Part shown: piece after piece, positions 49,899-58,978 of the stretch | Layout of the letters: every line of letters begins with the position of its first letter | Position numbering within the stretch: the first letter of the stretch is position 1 | Virus record (IMG/VR): IMGVR_UViG_3300023179_000037 | Location: 47,976-111,975 of that record | DNA length: 64,000 bases | Reading direction: 5' to 3' (one strand) | Source: a virus | Program-made: the position numbers and the translations under genes | The notes under the pieces: generated by a model | The model's input: only the letters and a program-made list of their open reading frames with translations | What the model was told of the DNA's origin: nothing | Database searches by the model: none

Positions 49899-49924
49899 AT
49901 ACTGATTTAATTTGGTATTTATAT
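49893..49924 (+). promoter_or_regulatory. Late promoter TATAAATA embedded in a hairpin that occludes the downstream start codon
   Basis: ATATAAATAC (49893-49902) is complementary to GTATTTATAT (49915-49924); ATG at 49923. Confidence 0.75.
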
Positions 49925-50321
49925 GTGGATGTATCAGAATAAACCGCTAGAAGAAATTCCAGAAAATGCATATGGTTTTGTTTATTTGATCACTAATAAC
50001 GACAATGGCAAAAAATACATAGGCAAAAAGTTATTTTGGTTTAGAAAAACTAAAATATTAAAGGGTAAAAAGAAAAGATACAAAATTGAATCTGATTGGA
50101 AAACTTACTGGTCCTCATCCGAAGAGGTTAAGTCCCTTGTTCAAAACTTAGGAGAGCAATTATTTACCAGAGAAATACTTCACATTTGCGAGAGTAAGGG
50201 AATGTGTAATTATTTAGAAGCAAGGGAACAAATGGACAGAAGAGTTTTAGAATCAAATGATTACTACAATGGCACCATACAGTGCAGAATACATAAAACT
50301 CACGTAAAGTTAAAAGATTAA
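49923..50321 (+). CDS. GIY-YIG endonuclease (Seg/endonuclease II-like)
   Basis: YGFVYLITN....KKYIGKK, REIL, YYN. Confidence 0.85.
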   Translation: MWMYQNKPLEEIPENAYGFVYLITNNDNGKKYIGKKLFWFRKTKILKGKKKRYKIESDWKTYWSSSEEVKSLVQNLGEQLFTREILHICESKGMCNYLEAREQMDRRVLESNDYYNGTIQCRIHKTHVKLKD

Positions 50322-50499: not shown

Positions 50500-50532
50500 C
50501 CCTTATTTTCATTTTACGTTTAGGAGATATAT

Positions 50533-51177
50533 ATGCGACTTCAAGAATTGGCAGCAAGATTAGTTGTAGTAGAAACAAAATTAGCAACTCTTACAGGGGT
50601 ACAACCCAATACATCAAGTCCAGTAAGTGTTGAGGAGCTGGATTCGAGATTATCAGTTGTAGAAGTACAAGTAGATCGTTTATTGGCAGAAAAAGCTGAG
50701 AAACAAGTTGCAGATATCGTAGCTGCTTCTCCTGATAAAGCACCAGTATCAGTTGCGGATATTGTTGCATTATCTGCTAGCTCAAATGTTCCTCAGGCTG
50801 CAGATATTGTTGCAGATGTTTTAGCTGTTCAAATGGAAGCACCCGCAATTCAAGATCCAGAAGTTGCAGCTATTGTAACTGCAGCTATTAAGGCAGTTAT
50901 AAGCGCTGATCCTGAAGTTGTTGCAGATCCTGCAGCTATCAAAGCAGTTATTACTGAAACTGTTGCACATATGCCTGCTCCTGCATCTGATGTTGAAGAT
51001 CAGGTTACTGCAGCAATTGCAGAAGTTTTAGCAGCAGCAACTGGTCAAGAAGTAACTAAAGATGAACACGAAGAAATACGAGATGCAGTGATAACACCAT
51101 CCGATACTGCGCTAGATGCAATTGAAGCAAGATTAACTGTTGCCGAAGCAAAGGTTGAAAGCCTGTTGGGAAAGTAA
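50533..51177 (+). CDS. Acidic Ala/Val-rich protein with three RLxxxE coiled-coil segments
   Basis: Strong AGGAG RBS; ARLVVVE, SRLSVVE, ARLTVAE. Confidence 0.75.
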   Translation: MRLQELAARLVVVETKLATLTGVQPNTSSPVSVEELDSRLSVVEVQVDRLLAEKAEKQVADIVAASPDKAPVSVADIVALSASSNVPQAADIVADVLAVQMEAPAIQDPEVAAIVTAAIKAVISADPEVVADPAAIKAVITETVAHMPAPASDVEDQVTAAIAEVLAAATGQEVTKDEHEEIRDAVITPSDTALDAIEARLTVAEAKVESLLGK

Positions 51178-51236
51178 TTAGTAAAATTAAAAGATGGTTC
51201 TATAGTATTATAGGATACTAAAAGATATCAATAATC

Positions 51237-51986
51237 ATGCACTACCGATCCATCTTCATATCTGATGTACATTTAGGTAGTAAAGGTTGTAAGGCGGAAT
51301 TATTAGTAAATTTTCTTAAAAATAATTCCGCTGATAAGTTATATCTTATAGGTGACATAGTTGATGGTTGGAAAATTCAACAAAATAAATGGGCTTGGAA
51401 ACAAGCCCATTCCAATGTAGTTCGTCGAGTCTTAGGACACGCAAAACAAGGAACTGAAGTATTTTATGTAGCCGGAAATCATGATGAATTTCTTAGACCT
51501 CTAATACCTTATGGTATATCGTTTGGTAGAATACATATAATTAATCAAATGTCTCACATCGGTATCGATGGAAAAAGATATTTGGTATTACATGGTGATC
51601 TATTTGATGGTATCTCAAGACTTGCTCCCTGGATAAGTTTTTTAGGAGATAAGGCATATGATTTACTACTCATCTTCAATACTTCATTCAATCGTTGGAG
51701 GCATAGATTCGGATTCGGTTATTGGTCTCTTTCTCAATTTCTTAAACAACGTGTCAAGCGGGCTGTGGACTTTATTTTTCATTTCGAGCGCAATCTCATT
51801 GACTATGGCCGTAAGCGTGGGTTTGACGGAGTCATTTGTGGACACATCCACAAACCAGAAATCAAAACCATAGATGGATTTGTATATATGAATGATGGTG
51901 ACTGGGTAGAATCATGTAGTGCTTTAGTTGAACATCCTAATGGTCGTTGGGAAATAATTTATTGGACCAAAGAAATTCCGGAATAA
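51237..51986 (+). CDS. Metallophosphoesterase, PlcP/LpxH-like
   Basis: FISDVHLG, GDIVDGW, GNHD, HGD.FD, CGHIH, N.GDWVESCSALVE. Confidence 0.85.
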   Translation: MHYRSIFISDVHLGSKGCKAELLVNFLKNNSADKLYLIGDIVDGWKIQQNKWAWKQAHSNVVRRVLGHAKQGTEVFYVAGNHDEFLRPLIPYGISFGRIHIINQMSHIGIDGKRYLVLHGDLFDGISRLAPWISFLGDKAYDLLLIFNTSFNRWRHRFGFGYWSLSQFLKQRVKRAVDFIFHFERNLIDYGRKRGFDGVICGHIHKPEIKTIDGFVYMNDGDWVESCSALVEHPNGRWEIIYWTKEIPE

Positions 51987-52001
51987 TTTATAGGAGATTT
52001 T

Positions 52002-52145
52002 ATGTTTTTTCTTAATTTTTACAATCCATATTATTGGTACAATGTATTAAATCTATCAACAATGCAAAACACTGAAGAAGGTTTATCAAATAATGTAGAA
52101 GAAGATCCTCAGGATTTTGACATAGAAGTAGAGTATACAGAATGA
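52002..52145 (+). CDS. 47-aa peptide with aromatic N-terminus and acidic C-terminus (not in ORF track)
   Basis: AGGAG RBS at 51992; MFFLNFYNPYYWYNVLNLSTMQNTEEGLSNNVEEDPQDFDIEVEYTE; ATGA overlap with ATP-grasp gene. Confidence 0.7.
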   Translation: MFFLNFYNPYYWYNVLNLSTMQNTEEGLSNNVEEDPQDFDIEVEYTE

Positions 52146-53053
52146 AAAATGTATGGGTCTTTCATTATGATTCCTTATCTGTTGAAAAAGATACTGAGAC
52201 CCGTAGTTTGGTTGAACGATTTAAAAAGCACGGTATAGACTGCAAAGTGTATCAACCAAAGAATTTTGATATTATTACAAGTCGTAAAAGTCATAAGAGT
52301 ATTCGCTATCAAGGTAGTCGTATTGAACTACCAGATGCTGTACTTGTAAGAACTGGTGCAGGAACAAACTATTTTACGCTGGCACTGCTTAGACAATTAG
52401 AAAACTTTGATATACCAATTATCAATAACAGTCAAAGTATAATGCATAGTAGAGACAAAATGATCAGTAGTCAAATATTGGCCCGCGCCAAGTTGCCTAC
52501 ACCAAGAACCATGTTGGTCAGTCATCCTATTAATATTGACATAGTAGAACAGGAGATTGGTTTTCCCTGTGTAGTAAAACTGGTAACAGGTAGTCAAGGG
52601 AGGGGTGTTTATCTCTGCAGAGATAAAGATATGTTTGTTAATTTAATGGATCTAACAGACAATCTTAAGAGTAAAAAAACTCTAATCATACAAGAGTTTA
52701 TTAACAGCGGAGAATTATTTGATCTTAGAGTTTGGGTCATTGGGGGCAAGACTATAACTGCTATGAAGCGTACACCACCTAAAGATGATTTTAAAGCCAA
52801 TATTACTAGGGGAGGTATAGGTGAACCTTTTGATTTAAATGAGGAAATTAGTGATCTAGCCAGTAAGACTGCTAGGGCATTTGATCTTGAAATAACTGGA
52901 GTAGATTTACTATTTAATGGTGAAAAATATCTAGTATGTGAAGCCAACAGCAGTCCTGGTTTTGAGGGCATAGATAGGTACTGCGGCACCAATATGGCCG
53001 AACAAATAGTTAATTATATAAGGAATAGAAATGATTTTCGATTTAGTAAGTGA
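52142..53053 (+). CDS. RimK/LysX-family ATP-grasp ligase
   Basis: RDK, P.P.T, VVK...GSQGRGV, IQEFI, DLRV, FKAN...GG, GVDLL, EANSSPG. Confidence 0.9.
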   Translation: MKNVWVFHYDSLSVEKDTETRSLVERFKKHGIDCKVYQPKNFDIITSRKSHKSIRYQGSRIELPDAVLVRTGAGTNYFTLALLRQLENFDIPIINNSQSIMHSRDKMISSQILARAKLPTPRTMLVSHPINIDIVEQEIGFPCVVKLVTGSQGRGVYLCRDKDMFVNLMDLTDNLKSKKTLIIQEFINSGELFDLRVWVIGGKTITAMKRTPPKDDFKANITRGGIGEPFDLNEEISDLASKTARAFDLEITGVDLLFNGEKYLVCEANSSPGFEGIDRYCGTNMAEQIVNYIRNRNDFRFSK

Positions 53054-53813
53054 TTTGCACATTGATCACTGGGGTCGTAGTTTTGAAACTGATTGGCTAT
53101 GCGATCAAAAAAGTGATATTCTAGTTGTTGCAGGAGATACTAGTGATAGTGTAGATATAACATGTGAATATTTACACAAGCTTACTAATTATTATACAGA
53201 TGTTTTAGTTGTTGATGGTAATCATGAACATCAAAATAATATGGAAAATTTAGAAGAATCAATACAATACTGGAAATCCTGCGTATCCCAAACATTGGCA
53301 ACTTATCTGGGAGATAAACAACCCACAATAAATGGTGTTAAATTTATTGGAATCTGTGGATGGTGGAGTTTTGATTTTGGCTTACCCAATATTAGCTCAG
53401 AACAAACTATATCTACATGTAAAGATCGTTATGGACTTACTGATATTGCAATTCAAAATCAAATGAATCAAAGTCTTCTAGATGCAAATCATATTACAAA
53501 TTTAATGGTGGAAGCAACACTTAATTCCGAAGTAAATGATATTGTAGTTGTTACTCATAGTTTGCCTCACTCCAGTTGTATTAGTTGGAATAGATACCCT
53601 CCAGATTACAATGTAGTGGGTTGCTATGGAAATACTAGACTGCAATGGGTATTAGACGCTGATATTAATAAAAAATGTCGCTATTGGGTTTTTGGACATA
53701 ATCATGATAGAAAAAATGTACCATATAAGTCTCTACGTTTCATCAGTAATCCTCGAGGCCGTCGTGAAGATTGGAACAGAATAGATTATCAAGCTCATAC
53801 GATAGAAATTTAA
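53031..53813 (+). CDS. Calcineurin-like metallophosphoesterase
   Basis: SDLH, AGD, GNHE, VTH..P, FGHNH, NPRG. Confidence 0.85.
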   Translation: MIFDLVSDLHIDHWGRSFETDWLCDQKSDILVVAGDTSDSVDITCEYLHKLTNYYTDVLVVDGNHEHQNNMENLEESIQYWKSCVSQTLATYLGDKQPTINGVKFIGICGWWSFDFGLPNISSEQTISTCKDRYGLTDIAIQNQMNQSLLDANHITNLMVEATLNSEVNDIVVVTHSLPHSSCISWNRYPPDYNVVGCYGNTRLQWVLDADINKKCRYWVFGHNHDRKNVPYKSLRFISNPRGRREDWNRIDYQAHTIEI

Positions 53814-53820
53814 ATAAAAA

Positions 53821-54402
53821 ATGAATTTTATCACAGATTGTGATATTATAAATTCTATAGATATAAATGATCTTTGGGTAATTGACAAATTTATATTGTC
53901 TAAGAAATTGGGATACTTATGTGGGCCGGCAGGGGTCCTTCCACCAAATGAAGGAAAATATATTGTTCGTCCTTGCATAAATATAAGAATGCTATCTAAA
54001 GGTGCTAAATTCATGTGGTTAAATACCATAGATGATATAATACCCGACGGATTCTTTTGGTGTGAAGTATTTGAAGGTCGTCATAGAACTTTTGACTACA
54101 ATTGGGGCAAACAAATACTAGCTGTTGAAGGTTTTAGAGACGATCCCGACCGATTAGACAGATTTAGCAGATGGACCAAAATAGATGATGAATATATACT
54201 ACCAGATTTTATTCAAGAAATAGCTTCTAGATATGAATGGTTTAATATTGAAACCATTGGTAATAAAATTATAGAAGCGCACTTTAGATATAATGATGAT
54301 TTTGCTAATCACAATGCCAAAACAATTATTCCTATTTGGAAAGAATATTTTTATGAAAGTCAAGAGGGCGATAGACTAGGATTTTTATTAAGATATGACT
54401 AA
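53821..54402 (+). CDS. Compact ATP-grasp-like protein (T4-like phage family)
   Basis: DK..LS..LGY.CGPAG...YIVRP..N...FWCE.FEG.H...N.E.IG..IIE.H.R. Confidence 0.55.
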   Translation: MNFITDCDIINSIDINDLWVIDKFILSKKLGYLCGPAGVLPPNEGKYIVRPCINIRMLSKGAKFMWLNTIDDIIPDGFFWCEVFEGRHRTFDYNWGKQILAVEGFRDDPDRLDRFSRWTKIDDEYILPDFIQEIASRYEWFNIETIGNKIIEAHFRYNDDFANHNAKTIIPIWKEYFYESQEGDRLGFLLRYD

Positions 54403-55405
54403 AAAGATACTAGTAATAACTGATAACTTAACAGATCAGATTAATGGTGTGGTTACAACCTATAAAAATCTTGAGGCGTTTGCGATTCGTGATGATTATA
54501 ACATTGTTTATATTACTCCCAATGAGTTCCGCCACTTTGATTGCCCTGTGTATAACGAAGTCAAGATTGCCTATCCGAGGTCGATGGGCACGAAGATTAA
54601 GAAGATCAATCCGAATTATATCCATATCGCAACAGAGGGTCCTGTGGGTTTGTGGGCTCGAGCATATCTTACAAAACGTGGTTATAGTTACAATACTGCT
54701 TATCATACTAAATTCCCTGAAGGATTACATACCTTGGTTGGAATACCTGAAACCATAACTTGGAAGTATATTAAATGGTTTCACAAACATACAGGCAAAG
54801 TATTAACAACTACAGATGCAATGGTAAATCTACTAAAGGAAAAAGGTTTGAGAGCAGAAATTATTCCTTGGACACGAGGAGTTGACAGATCTATTTTTAA
54901 TGATTCGCTGAGAAATAAATCTAATAAAGTCGTCAAGTTGGTTTGTGTTAGTAGAATTAGTAAAGAAAAAAATCTAGATGATTTCTGTAGTTTAGTTTAT
55001 CCAAACGCTGAGAAAATACTCGTGGGCGATGGCCCATACCGAGAAGAATTAGAAAACAAATATTCTGATGTAAAATTTGTTGGATTTAAAACGGGAACAG
55101 ATTTAGCTTACTATTTTGCCAATGCTGATGTATTTGTTTTTCCATCACGTTGGGAAACTTTCGGAATCGTAATGATAGAAGCCATGGCATGTGGTACTCC
55201 AGTTGCAGCTTATCCGTGTCAAGGGCCCTTGGAAGTAGTTGATCACGGAAGTACTGGATTTCTTAGTAACGATTTAAATTTAGCAATCACTGAGTGTTTA
55301 TCATTAGATAGAAATGAAGTGATATGTAAAAGTAATAAGTGGTCTTGGGAATCTGCTTGGAATATTTTTAAAGATAACTTAACGCCATTAGATAAAAAAC
55401 ACTGA
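54395..55405 (+). CDS. GT4 glycosyltransferase, Agt/glycolipid synthase-like
   Basis: ITD....QINGVVTT, HIATEGP.G, YHTKFPE, W.RGVD, R.SKEKN, ETFG.V..EAMACGTPV. Confidence 0.85.
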   Translation: MTKKILVITDNLTDQINGVVTTYKNLEAFAIRDDYNIVYITPNEFRHFDCPVYNEVKIAYPRSMGTKIKKINPNYIHIATEGPVGLWARAYLTKRGYSYNTAYHTKFPEGLHTLVGIPETITWKYIKWFHKHTGKVLTTTDAMVNLLKEKGLRAEIIPWTRGVDRSIFNDSLRNKSNKVVKLVCVSRISKEKNLDDFCSLVYPNAEKILVGDGPYREELENKYSDVKFVGFKTGTDLAYYFANADVFVFPSRWETFGIVMIEAMACGTPVAAYPCQGPLEVVDHGSTGFLSNDLNLAITECLSLDRNEVICKSNKWSWESAWNIFKDNLTPLDKKH

Positions 55406-55458
55406 GATATCAAAATACACAATACAATGTTATTGTATAAGTTTTAGTATCCGAGCAT

Positions 55459-55487
55459 TTGACTCGGATAACTTTTGGTTATATAAT
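55459..55487 (+). promoter_or_regulatory. Early sigma70 promoter with overlapping inverted repeat
   Basis: TTGACT-N17-TATAAT; TATCCGAG/CTCGGATA. Confidence 0.8.
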
Positions 55488-58647: not shown

Positions 58648-58806
58648 ATGAACATGAATGATCTACACAAATTATCCAACAAAGAACTAGAAACGATTCT
58701 TGCAAAGATCGAGATGGAATTACGAGAGCGCAATCTAGATGCCGAGTATCAACTTTTTGAACAGCAAATGATGATGGCCATTGAAGGAGATGAAATTGAT
58801 TTCTAG
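58648..58806 (+). CDS. 52-aa hypothetical protein (not in ORF track)
   Basis: AAGGA RBS right after promoter; MNMNDLHKLSNKELETIL... Confidence 0.65.
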   Translation: MNMNDLHKLSNKELETILAKIEMELRERNLDAEYQLFEQQMMMAIEGDEIDF

Positions 58807-58978
58807 AGCAAGAGAATATACAAATCGAATTCTTGAATTGGATGAGGATGGATTGCTAGATCGAGATTGGCTAATTTTTTCATTACTCAATTGGATGTCC
58901 GAACAAGAAGTAAGATCTTTTTATGAGCGCGTTGTTCAATCCGAAATACTAGATTCTATGGATGACAATGATGAATAA
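58790..58978 (+). CDS. Hypothetical protein
   Basis: AAGGAG upstream; TN.ILE...EG..D...LNWMSE.EV. Confidence 0.55.
   Translation: MKLISRAREYTNRILELDEDGLLDRDWLIFSLLNWMSEQEVRSFYERVVQSEILDSMDDNDE

What the first reader, a model, noticed from the sequence alone, without database searches (positions are those of the whole stretch)
52002..53053. Unannotated 47-aa peptide translationally coupled to a RimK-type ATP-grasp ligase: candidate phage RiPP or glutamylation substrate
Seen: an ORF missed by the track, with a strong AGGAG RBS and an ATGA overlap with the ligase. It has an aromatic N-terminus (MFFLNFYNPYYWY) and a Ser/Thr plus Asp/Glu-rich C-half ending EVEYTE. Established: RimK extends C-terminal Glu residues, LysX loads the C-terminal Glu of LysW, and graspetide ligases bind an aromatic leader (microviridin PFFARFL) and crosslink S/T/K to D/E. 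Inference: this is a dedicated substrate/enzyme pair, either a modified peptide or a polyglutamylated decoy or carrier.
Basis: partly seen in the sequence, partly recalled or inferred. Interest (0 to 1): 0.8.

Follow-up and report, generated by a model that had tools for sequence, protein, structure and literature searches.

The report
Phage acidic peptide coupled to RimK
An uncultured lake-type phage encodes a real, conserved 47-residue acidic peptide that always ends in glutamate and is translated together with a RimK-type glutamate ligase, so it is probably the enzyme's own substrate, although no chemistry has been measured.

Summary
ORF 52002-52145 (47 aa) has an AGGAG ribosome-binding site and an ATGA overlap with rimK (52142-53053).

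It is a real gene family with 34 distinct members of 33-55 aa. All share an N-terminal aromatic F-N-x-F-N-P-F-x-W motif, a variable Pro/acid-rich linker, an E-D-P-Q-D-F-D-type acid box and a tail of the form [DE]-E-x-[A/T]-E. The last residue is Glu in 34 of 34. In every locus I could inspect the gene abuts rimK. This holds in three gene contexts and three stop/start geometries, with Glu coded by GAA or GAG. dN/dS is 0.07-0.6.

The ligase is a true RimK-family enzyme. Its ATP, Mg and both glutamate-site residues are invariant.

Best reading (about 50%): the peptide is a co-translated acceptor whose C-terminal Glu is extended by the ligase.

Caveats: sister phage clades keep RimK without the peptide, and no modification has been measured.

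New context: RimK belongs to a conserved PlcP-RimK-glycosyltransferase trio in these phages.

The scan found this same peptide family before on other DNA (e1-5712519, e1-5994767), with the same conclusion.

The parts
51991..51995 (+). Shine-Dalgarno-like AGGAG, 6 nt before the peptide start codon
   Evidence: Read directly. GGAG/AGGAG/AAGGAG lies at the same distance in the homologous loci.
52002..52145 (+). Gene for the 47-aa acidic peptide (net charge -10), a member of a phage-only family of 33-55 aa proteins
   Evidence: ORF; homologues before rimK in 19 further loci; 17 representative clusters; dN/dS below 1; single copy in the 112-kb record.
52002..52049 (+). N-terminal aromatic motif (residues 1-16; family consensus F-N-x-F-N-P-F-x-W, with N8 and P9 invariant in alignment A2). 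Proposed docking element.
   Evidence: Alignment A2 and motif table. AF2 gives a helix at residues 9-29 with pLDDT about 78 and a disordered tail. The docking role is inference.
52098..52121 (+). Conserved acid box (residues 33-40, E-E-D-P-Q-D-F-D; L-P-E-D-F-D in the second clade)
   Evidence: Alignment A2; position counts.
52128..52142 (+). C-terminal tail (residues 43-47). Family pattern [DE]-E-x-[A/T]-E-COOH, terminal Glu in 34 of 34 members. Proposed acceptor end.
   Evidence: counts. Glu is coded by GAA in ATGA-overlap loci and GAG in TAATG or spaced loci, so the constraint is on the amino acid. Only 12 of 228 plus-strand ORFs of this phage record end in E.
52142..52145 (+). ATGA stop/start overlap, giving translational coupling of peptide and rimK
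   Evidence: ATGA in 11 loci, TAATG in 7, and a 7-nt spacer in 1.
52142..53053 (+). RimK-family ATP-grasp alpha-L-glutamate ligase (303 aa) with a RimK pre-ATP-grasp N-domain
   Evidence: Pfam RimK 3e-46 plus Rimk_N 2e-13. TIGR00768 228 bits, over its cut-off. PDB RimK of Pseudomonas and E. coli at E 1e-39 to 1e-42, against LysX/ArgX at about 1e-16. R70, K146, R196, D255, E267 and N269 are invariant in 135 phage RimKs.
51237..51986 (+). LpxH/PlcP-like metallophosphoesterase immediately upstream; a conserved partner of RimK in related phages
Evidence: Pfam Metallophos and weak LpxH hits below cut-off. Synteny with RimK in most related loci.
53031..53813 (+). Second metallophosphoesterase, overlapping the rimK end; present only in the window's clade
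   Evidence: (TIGR03729-like, below cut-off).
53821..54402 (+). 193-aa protein of unknown function (phrog_3577), probably a small ATP-grasp-fold protein
   Evidence: over 600 homologues, no Pfam domain; AF2 pLDDT 72.7; Foldseek hits are all ATP-grasp enzymes: PylC E 7e-4, ArgX, Ddl, PsnB; low TM of 0.27-0.33.
54395..55405 (+). GT4 glycosyltransferase (Agt-like); a conserved partner of PlcP and RimK
55448..55470 (+). Terminator-like hairpin closing the island. No strong promoter or terminator match lies between 50500 and 55400 on the + strand.
   Evidence: consensus scan only.

Best explanation
The 47-aa ORF is a genuine phage gene. Its product is the co-translated partner, most likely the acceptor substrate, of the RimK-type ligase encoded next to it.

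Proposed mechanism:
- The aromatic N-terminal motif (F-N-x-F-N-P-F-x-W) docks the peptide. The docking site is not known.
- The variable Pro/acid-rich linker and the acid box lie along the ligase's substrate path.
- The invariant C-terminal Glu sits at the acceptor site (R196, the counterpart of E. coli RimK R189). There its carboxylate is phosphorylated by ATP and joined to the amino group of an incoming L-Glu held near R70 (the counterpart of E. coli R64).
- Repeating this step builds a C-terminal oligo- or poly-alpha-glutamate tail on a ribosomally made primer.

Shown: the gene, its conservation, its coupling to rimK, the invariant terminal Glu, and an intact RimK active site.

Inferred: that the peptide enters the active site, that Glu is the residue added, that the alpha-carboxylate is the one used, and what the product does.
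For: (1) Pairing. A family member sits directly before rimK in the window and in 19 further loci, one of them a duplicate contig. These cover all relatives with RimK at 66% identity or more, plus a separate clade at 51-53%.
(2) The pair travels as a unit through three contexts: PlcP>pep>RimK>MPE2>(U193)>GT4, PlcP>pep>RimK>GT4, and L008, where no PlcP or GT4 is nearby.
(3) Coupling is kept in three geometries: ATGA, TAATG and a 7-nt spacer.
(4) The terminal residue is Glu in 34 of 34 members and is coded by both GAA and GAG. Positions -4 and -5 are acidic, -2 is A/T, and neighbouring positions vary freely. Background frequency of terminal Glu in this phage record is 12 of 228 ORFs.
(5) A third RimK clade (L009/L093/L094) carries a non-homologous acidic ORF, also ending D-A-E, at the same place. 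This points to selection for the feature and not only for the sequence.
(6) The enzyme is RimK-family, and the residues that PMC10375531 assigns to the acceptor C-terminal Glu (R189) and the incoming Glu (R64) are invariant.
(8) RimKs with the peptide carry more positive net charge (+3.4 and +1.1 in the two clades) than peptide-less sister clades (-0.7, -1.3) and the other phage RimKs (-4.9).
(9) The peptide gene is under purifying selection. It occurs only as a small stand-alone protein, and none was found next to 80 cellular rimK genes.
Against: - No biochemical data exist.
- Fourteen distinct RimKs inside the same super-clade, and all cyanophage RimKs, lack the peptide. The ligase therefore has some other substrate (host S6, free Glu or another protein), and the peptide could be a modulator.
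- No RimK residue discriminates peptide-bearing from peptide-less enzymes.
- The charge trend rests on only two or three independent clades.
- Position -2 is A/T, unlike the Glu-Glu end of E. coli S6 (from my own knowledge).
- A model of the complex could not be made with these tools.
Confidence: 0.5

Rival explanations
1. The peptide is a regulator or adaptor of the ligase and not its substrate. Its acidic tail would occupy the basic substrate path as a pseudo-substrate (inhibitor or timer). Alternatively, its aromatic N-terminus would bind a third protein and bring RimK to it, for example the host ribosome/S6 or a phage or membrane protein.
For: RimK works without the peptide in many sister phages. 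Stoichiometric co-translation suits a binding partner as well as a substrate. The conserved N-terminal motif looks like a protein-docking element. Position -2 is never Glu, unlike S6.
Against: An inhibitor would not need an invariant terminal Glu with a free carboxylate. The exact feature that RimK, LysX and TTL enzymes recognise is the one conserved. The analogous non-homologous ORF in L009/L093/L094 also ends in Glu.
Confidence: 0.2
2. The peptide is an unrelated small acidic phage protein, for example a DNA mimic, an anti-defence factor or a host-takeover factor. It would stay next to rimK only through inherited gene order and operon economy.
For: Small acidic proteins are common in phage early or accessory regions. 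The peptide evolves much faster than rimK (dN/dS up to 0.6). It has been lost in several lineages.
Against: Adjacency persists at saturated synonymous divergence, in three different neighbourhoods and three junction geometries. The family was found nowhere else in the 245 loci fetched or in the 112-kb record. A DNA mimic gives no reason for the invariant terminal Glu.
Confidence: 0.13
3. The peptide is a LysW-like carrier. The ligase would load an amino acid or other amine onto the gamma-carboxylate of the terminal Glu, and the peptide would carry the cargo to other enzymes of the island.
For: It is a small acidic protein ending in acidic-acidic-x-small-Glu, which resembles the LysW tail E-D-W-G-E (from my own knowledge). 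It is encoded next to a RimK/LysX-superfamily ligase. Other enzymes lie next door: two phosphoesterases, a second ATP-grasp-like protein and a glycosyltransferase.
Against: The ligase is far closer to RimK than to LysX (E 1e-42 against 1e-16) and scores 158.8 against a cut-off of 275.6 for LysX. The peptide has no Cys and so no zinc-ribbon domain. No LysZ-type kinase is present in the 112-kb record. The neighbouring enzymes vary between peptide-bearing clades.
Confidence: 0.07
4. The peptide is a graspetide-type RiPP precursor. The aromatic N-terminus would be a leader, and the ligase would form side-chain ester or amide rings between Ser/Thr/Lys and Asp/Glu.
For: There is a conserved aromatic N-terminal motif followed by an acid-rich core. 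PMC10375531 notes that a RimK-like graspetide ligase (CdnC) uses the equivalent arginine.
Against: No Ser/Thr/Lys position is conserved. L090, L019, L025 and P0121 have none in the last 25 residues. The enzyme carries the RimK pre-ATP-grasp domain and matches RimK, MptN and LysX models, with no graspetide-ligase model among the 25 best matches shown. No protease or exporter was seen in the immediate island, and a RimB-type protease is absent from the 112-kb record.
Confidence: 0.03

Closest known systems
RimK / ribosomal protein S6 (RpsF) C-terminal polyglutamylation (E. coli, Pseudomonas)
   Same: The ligase family is the same (TIGR00768, Pfam RimK plus Rimk_N; PDB 7qyr, 5zct and 4iwx at E about 1e-40). 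The ATP, Mg and both glutamate-site residues are conserved. The candidate acceptor is an acidic tail ending in Glu.
   Different: The candidate acceptor is a dedicated, co-translated 45-55 aa peptide encoded by the phage, not a ribosomal protein. Position -2 is Ala/Thr, not Glu. The ligase does not reach the S6-ligase equivalog cut-off (152 against 331 bits). No RimA or RimB partners are present.
LysX/ArgX with the amino-group carrier protein LysW
   Same: A small acidic protein with a C-terminal Glu is encoded beside a RimK-superfamily ligase that acts on that Glu. The tail pattern is acidic-acidic-x-small-Glu.
   Different: There is no zinc-ribbon globular domain and no downstream LysZ/Y/J/K enzymes. 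The ligase is much closer to RimK. It is not known which carboxylate is used.
Tubulin tyrosine ligase / TTLL glutamylases acting on acidic tubulin tails
   Same: An ATP-grasp ligase binds a disordered acidic C-terminal tail through a basic surface and a conserved arginine (as described in PMC10375531).
   Different: These are eukaryotic, the substrate is a large folded protein, and no gene-level coupling exists.
Graspetides (microviridin, plesiocin; MdnB/C, PsnB)
   Same: A ribosomal peptide with a conserved aromatic N-terminal recognition motif is paired with an ATP-grasp enzyme.
   Different: The ligase clade is different, no conserved Ser/Thr/Lys nucleophiles exist, and the conserved feature here is the free C-terminus.
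PEARL scaffold peptides (C-terminal amino-acid addition to a ribosomal scaffold peptide)
   Same: The logic would be the same: a small ribosomal peptide used as a primer for non-ribosomal extension at the C-terminus.
   Different: PEARLs are LanB-like, tRNA-dependent enzymes and are unrelated to ATP-grasp ligases. I compared these by concept only and tested nothing.

Membership tests
RimK family alpha-L-glutamate ligases (TIGR00768 / PF08443 + PF18030) | Full-length match over the curated cut-offs, including the RimK pre-ATP-grasp N-domain | tested here: met
   TIGR00768 228.1 bits against 143.4. PF08443 157.8 against 21 and PF18030 51.2 against 26.4.
RimK family alpha-L-glutamate ligases (TIGR00768 / PF08443 + PF18030) | ATP-grasp catalytic set, plus the acceptor-Glu arginine (E. 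coli R189) and the incoming-Glu arginine (E. coli R64) | tested here: met
   K146, D255, E267, N269, R196 and R70 are invariant in 135 phage RimKs. Mapping comes from the HMMER alignment to 5zct. Residue roles come from PMC10375531.
30S ribosomal protein S6--L-glutamate ligase (equivalog NF007764) | Score over the equivalog cut-off | tested here: not met
   152.1 bits against a cut-off of 331.
30S ribosomal protein S6--L-glutamate ligase (equivalog NF007764) | [quoted passage not shown] | not testable with these tools
   The host is unknown and no assay is possible.
LysX/LysW amino-group carrier system | Ligase reaches the LysX equivalog cut-off (TIGR02144) | tested here: not met
   158.8 bits against 275.6. 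PDB LysX/ArgX only at about 1e-16, against RimK at 1e-42.
LysX/LysW amino-group carrier system | Carrier has a Cys4 zinc-ribbon globular domain | tested here: not met
   The window peptide has no Cys. The family alignment shows no conserved Cys.
LysX/LysW amino-group carrier system | Carrier ends in Glu after an acidic stretch | tested here: met
   Terminal Glu in 34 of 34 members; positions -4 and -5 acidic in 82-85%.
LysX/LysW amino-group carrier system | Downstream LysZ-type kinase and related enzymes are present | tested here: not met
   No AA_kinase (PF00696) match in the 112-kb record, which is estimated 66% complete.
Graspetide RiPPs | Core peptide with conserved Ser/Thr/Lys and Asp/Glu positions for side-chain rings | tested here: not met
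   No conserved Ser/Thr/Lys column. Four members have none in the last 25 residues.
Graspetide RiPPs | Graspetide-type ATP-grasp macrocyclase | tested here: not met
   Best NCBIfam matches are rimK_fam, MptN, LysX, the S6 ligase and CofF; no graspetide-ligase model is among the 25 shown. PsnB (7drm) only at E 2e-7.
Graspetide RiPPs | Conserved leader motif recognised by the ligase | tested here: inconclusive
   A conserved aromatic N-terminal motif exists, but binding to the ligase could not be tested.

The most novel reading that the evidence does not exclude
The peptide and RimK together make a new kind of ribosomally primed, ATP-grasp-extended product: an aromatic docking or membrane-seeking head carrying a poly-alpha-glutamate tail. 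This product would work within the phage's conserved PlcP-RimK-glycosyltransferase module, for example as a phosphorus-free polyanion that replaces negative charge lost when host phospholipids are stripped during infection under phosphate scarcity.
Probability: 0.08. Interest if true: 0.85.

Novelty: new variant of a known kind. Interest (0 to 1): 0.62.

Why it matters
The only known natural protein substrate of RimK is ribosomal protein S6. RimK genes in phages are routinely labelled 'S6 modification', yet nobody knows what they do.

A dedicated, co-translated peptide that ends in the exact feature RimK-type enzymes act on would give phage RimK a directly testable substrate. If the peptide is extended, it would define a new class of ribosomally primed, non-ribosomally extended peptide in viruses.

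The tight linkage of RimK to a PlcP-like phosphoesterase and a lipid-type glycosyltransferase across many lake phages also suggests a link to membrane or phosphorus physiology during infection. I found no description of such a link in the seven literature searches made here.

Tried and rejected
- A single-protein scan of viral contigs with RimK found nothing. The peptide alone was too short for that tool. Alignment-based scans worked.
- tblastn of the peptide against 50,697 phage records gave no match.
- Pfam, NCBIfam and PHROGs gave no family for the peptide. The ESM Atlas gave no usable neighbour.
- The acidic ORFs of L009/L093/L094 are not detectably homologous to the family (hhalign probability 1%). 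I count them as analogues only.
- A search for RimK residues that discriminate peptide-bearing from peptide-less enzymes found none. The basic 'belt' positions do not separate the groups cleanly.
- No peptide, and no acidic ORF ending in Glu, lies before any of 80 cellular rimK genes.
- No RimB-type protease and no LysZ-type kinase is present in the record.
- Host assignment failed. The window has no tRNAs, and the RNR large subunit is nearest to an Alcaligenes phage and to Pelagibacter phages at 55-62%.
- A model of the ligase-peptide complex was not attempted. The fold tool takes single unaltered chains, and the two genes are in different frames.
- Seven literature searches found no description of this peptide or of a phage RimK substrate.

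Full report
**Observation.** The window holds an ATG ORF at 52002-52145 on the + strand, encoding 47 aa. AGGAG at 51991-51995 lies 6 nt before the start, and the TGA stop overlaps the rimK start as ATGA (52142-52145). The N-terminal 16 residues are rich in Phe, Tyr and Trp. The C-terminal half is acidic and ends in Glu, and the net charge is -10. The following ORF (52142-53053, 303 aa) is a full-length RimK-family ATP-grasp ligase. It matches Pfam RimK at 3e-46 and Rimk_N at 2e-13. It scores 228 bits on TIGR00768, over the cut-off of 143. Solved RimK structures from Pseudomonas and E. coli match at E 1e-39 to 1e-42, whereas LysX/ArgX match only at about 1e-16. The window is part of a 112-kb IMG/VR virus record estimated 66% complete, with 34% GC.

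**Is the small ORF a gene?** The closest phages named in databases are cyanophages S-RIM32, S-RIM12, S-RIM8 and S-CAM8 (RimK 45-49% identical). They have no comparable upstream peptide, and the peptide has no tblastn match in 50,697 phage records. Metagenomic relatives tell a different story.

- I scanned viral contigs and metagenome contigs with a RimK alignment (A1). I then searched all six frames of every locus with a profile of the peptide.
- A homologous ORF lies directly before rimK in every locus whose RimK is at least 66% identical to the window's: L006, L007 (L089 is the same contig), L008, L086, L087, L088, L090, L091, L092 and L095.
- It also lies there in a second clade at 51-53% identity: L015, L016, L019, L024, L025, L031, L032 and L109.
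- Each copy has an SD-like GGAG/AGGAG/AAGGAG 5-9 nt before its start.
- A profile search of 1.84 billion representative proteins found 17 clusters. All are stand-alone proteins of 33-55 aa, and no fused or longer forms appeared.
- Pairwise dN/dS is 0.07-0.6 for the peptide gene (one pair above 1), against 0.02-0.16 for rimK at mostly saturated dS. The linker has in-frame indels.

The ORF is therefore a real protein-coding gene. It evolves faster than the ligase but remains under purifying selection.

**Anatomy of the family** (34 distinct sequences).

1. An N-terminal aromatic motif with consensus F-N-x-F-N-P-F-x-W. Asn-Pro is invariant in alignment A2.
2. A variable linker, often Pro-rich, with indels.
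3. An acid box, E-D-P-Q-D-F-D in the window's clade and L-P-E-D-F-D in the second clade.
4. A tail of the form [DE]-E-x-[A/T]-E. The last residue is Glu in 34 of 34 members. Position -2 is Ala or Thr in 28 of 34 and acidic only once. Positions -4 and -5 are acidic in 82-85%.

The terminal Glu is coded by GAA where the junction is ATGA, and mostly by GAG where it is TAATG or a 7-nt spacer. The constraint is therefore on the amino acid and not on the overlapping nucleotides. In this phage record only 12 of 228 plus-strand ORFs end in Glu. AlphaFold2 with the family alignment gives a moderately confident helix over residues 9-29 and a disordered acidic tail (mean pLDDT 71).

**Is the pairing with RimK specific?** The peptide-RimK junction persists in three neighbourhoods:

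- PlcP-like > peptide > RimK > second metallophosphoesterase > (193-aa protein) > GT4, in the window's clade.
- PlcP-like > peptide > RimK > GT4, in the second clade.
- L008, where the pair sits after unrelated genes, with no PlcP or GT4 within the 3 kb upstream or the short stretch of contig remaining downstream.

The family was found nowhere else in the 245 loci fetched, and it occurs once in the 112-kb record. A third RimK clade (L009, L093, L094) carries at the same position a 45-aa acidic ORF that also ends D-A-E. It is not detectably homologous to the family (hhalign probability 1%). This looks like an analogous solution. Cellular RimK homologues reach only 40-47% identity (Paenibacillus, Pseudoalteromonas, Methanosarcinales and others). 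None of 80 such loci has the peptide or any acidic ORF ending in Glu upstream.

**The enzyme.** I used the HMMER alignment to E. coli RimK (5zct) and the residue roles described in PMC10375531. The arginine that holds the acceptor's C-terminal Glu (E. coli R189) corresponds to R196. The arginine near the incoming Glu (R64) corresponds to R70. Both are invariant in all 135 distinct phage RimKs collected, as are the ATP lysine (K146) and the Mg ligands (D255, E267, N269). [quoted passage not shown] The peptide's conserved feature, a disordered acidic tail with a free C-terminal Glu, is thus the feature this enzyme class recognises. Peptide-associated RimKs have more positive net charge (means +3.4 and +1.1) than peptide-less sister clades (-0.7, -1.3) and the other phage RimKs (-4.9). 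This is suggestive only, because it rests on two or three independent lineages.

**Against a simple substrate story.** A RimK tree shows the peptide-bearing clades interleaved with 14 distinct peptide-less RimKs in the same super-clade. In those, PlcP or GT4 abuts rimK directly. All cyanophage RimKs also lack the peptide. The ligase must therefore have another acceptor in those phages, whether host S6, free Glu or something else, and the peptide is an accessory. No RimK residue separates the two groups. Nothing has been measured.

**Mechanism chosen.** The most likely reading (about 0.5) is that the peptide is co-translated with the ligase and docks through its aromatic head. It would then present its C-terminal Glu to R196 for ATP-dependent activation and extension by L-Glu, giving an oligo- or poly-alpha-glutamyl tail on a ribosomal primer. 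The rivals, with my estimated probabilities, are:

- a pseudo-substrate regulator or adaptor (0.2);
- an unrelated acidic phage protein kept only by synteny (0.13);
- a LysW-like carrier (0.07). There is no zinc ribbon, the ligase is nearer to RimK, and no LysZ-type kinase is present;
- a graspetide RiPP (0.03). No Ser/Thr/Lys is conserved, four members have none in their last 25 residues, and the ligase clade is wrong.

**Surroundings.** RimK is part of a conserved trio with the LpxH/PlcP-like metallophosphoesterase and the GT4 glycosyltransferase in most related phage contigs. The trio appears in at least three gene orders: PlcP>RimK>GT4, PlcP>GT4>RimK and RimK>PlcP>GT4. I did not test that naming, but the linkage of RimK to the two genes is robust and, as far as my literature searches reached, unreported. 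No strong promoter or terminator match interrupts 50500-55400 on the + strand, and a terminator-like hairpin follows at 55448-55470. The 193-aa protein at 53821-54402 (phrog_3577, over 600 homologues, no Pfam domain) folds into something that Foldseek matches only to ATP-grasp enzymes. The matches are weak.

**Comparison and novelty.** The system works most like RimK/S6. It is a member of the RimK family by sequence, but not of the S6-ligase equivalog (152 against 331 bits). A dedicated, virus-encoded, co-translated acceptor peptide has not been described in the literature I could search. I class it as a new variant of a known kind. The scan had already met this peptide family on other DNA (e1-5712519, followed up with the same verdict; e1-5994767). 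My results agree with those. They add the tail motif statistics, the codon-level argument, the conserved acceptor-site residues, the three-context argument and the PlcP-RimK-GT4 linkage.

**Limits.** The host is unknown. A model of the complex could not be made.

Noticed in passing
window 51237-55405; loci L006-L110: RimK is syntenic with a PlcP/LpxH-like metallophosphoesterase and a GT4 glycosyltransferase in most related phage contigs. The trio appears in at least three gene orders (PlcP>RimK>GT4, PlcP>GT4>RimK, RimK>PlcP>GT4), whether or not the peptide is present. This suggests a functional link between the ligase and the putative lipid-remodelling pair.
   Followed up: partly
window 53821-54402: A 193-aa protein (phrog_3577, over 600 close homologues, no Pfam domain) gives an AF2 model (pLDDT 72.7) whose Foldseek hits are all ATP-grasp enzymes (PylC E 7e-4, ArgX, Ddl, PsnB; TM about 0.3). 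It is probably a minimal second ATP-grasp-like protein in the island. It is present in only some peptide-bearing relatives.
   Followed up: partly
L009:2865-2999, L093:2865-2999, L094:2865-2999: A third RimK clade (55% identity) has a different 45-aa, highly acidic, amphipathic-looking ORF overlapping the rimK start and ending D-A-E. It is not homologous to the family by hhalign and may be an analogous partner.
   Followed up: partly
L003 about 2848-2959 (Synechococcus phage S-RIM8); also L048, L059, L067, L071: An unannotated 36-aa hydrophobic ORF (50 aa from an upstream GTG), with a membrane-helix-like sequence containing N-N-P-Y, ends in an ATGA overlap with the cyanophage rimK start. It is conserved in several S-RIM8-like contigs and is not acidic.
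   Followed up: no
L020, L021, L108, L018; window 51237-51986: Where the PlcP-like gene abuts rimK directly, its product ends in a short acidic tail (E-K-D-E, E-K-D-Q-E). The window's copy ends K-E-I-P-E. Whether RimK could act on these ends is unknown.
   Followed up: no
window 58781-58978 (+): This is the only other ORF of the 112-kb record with an acid-rich tail ending in Glu (65 aa, ending D-D-N-D-E). It does not belong to the peptide family.
   Followed up: no
window 49923-50321: A SegE-type GIY-YIG homing endonuclease (Pfam 5e-39) lies just upstream of the accessory island, consistent with a T4-like mobile-element hot spot.
   Followed up: no
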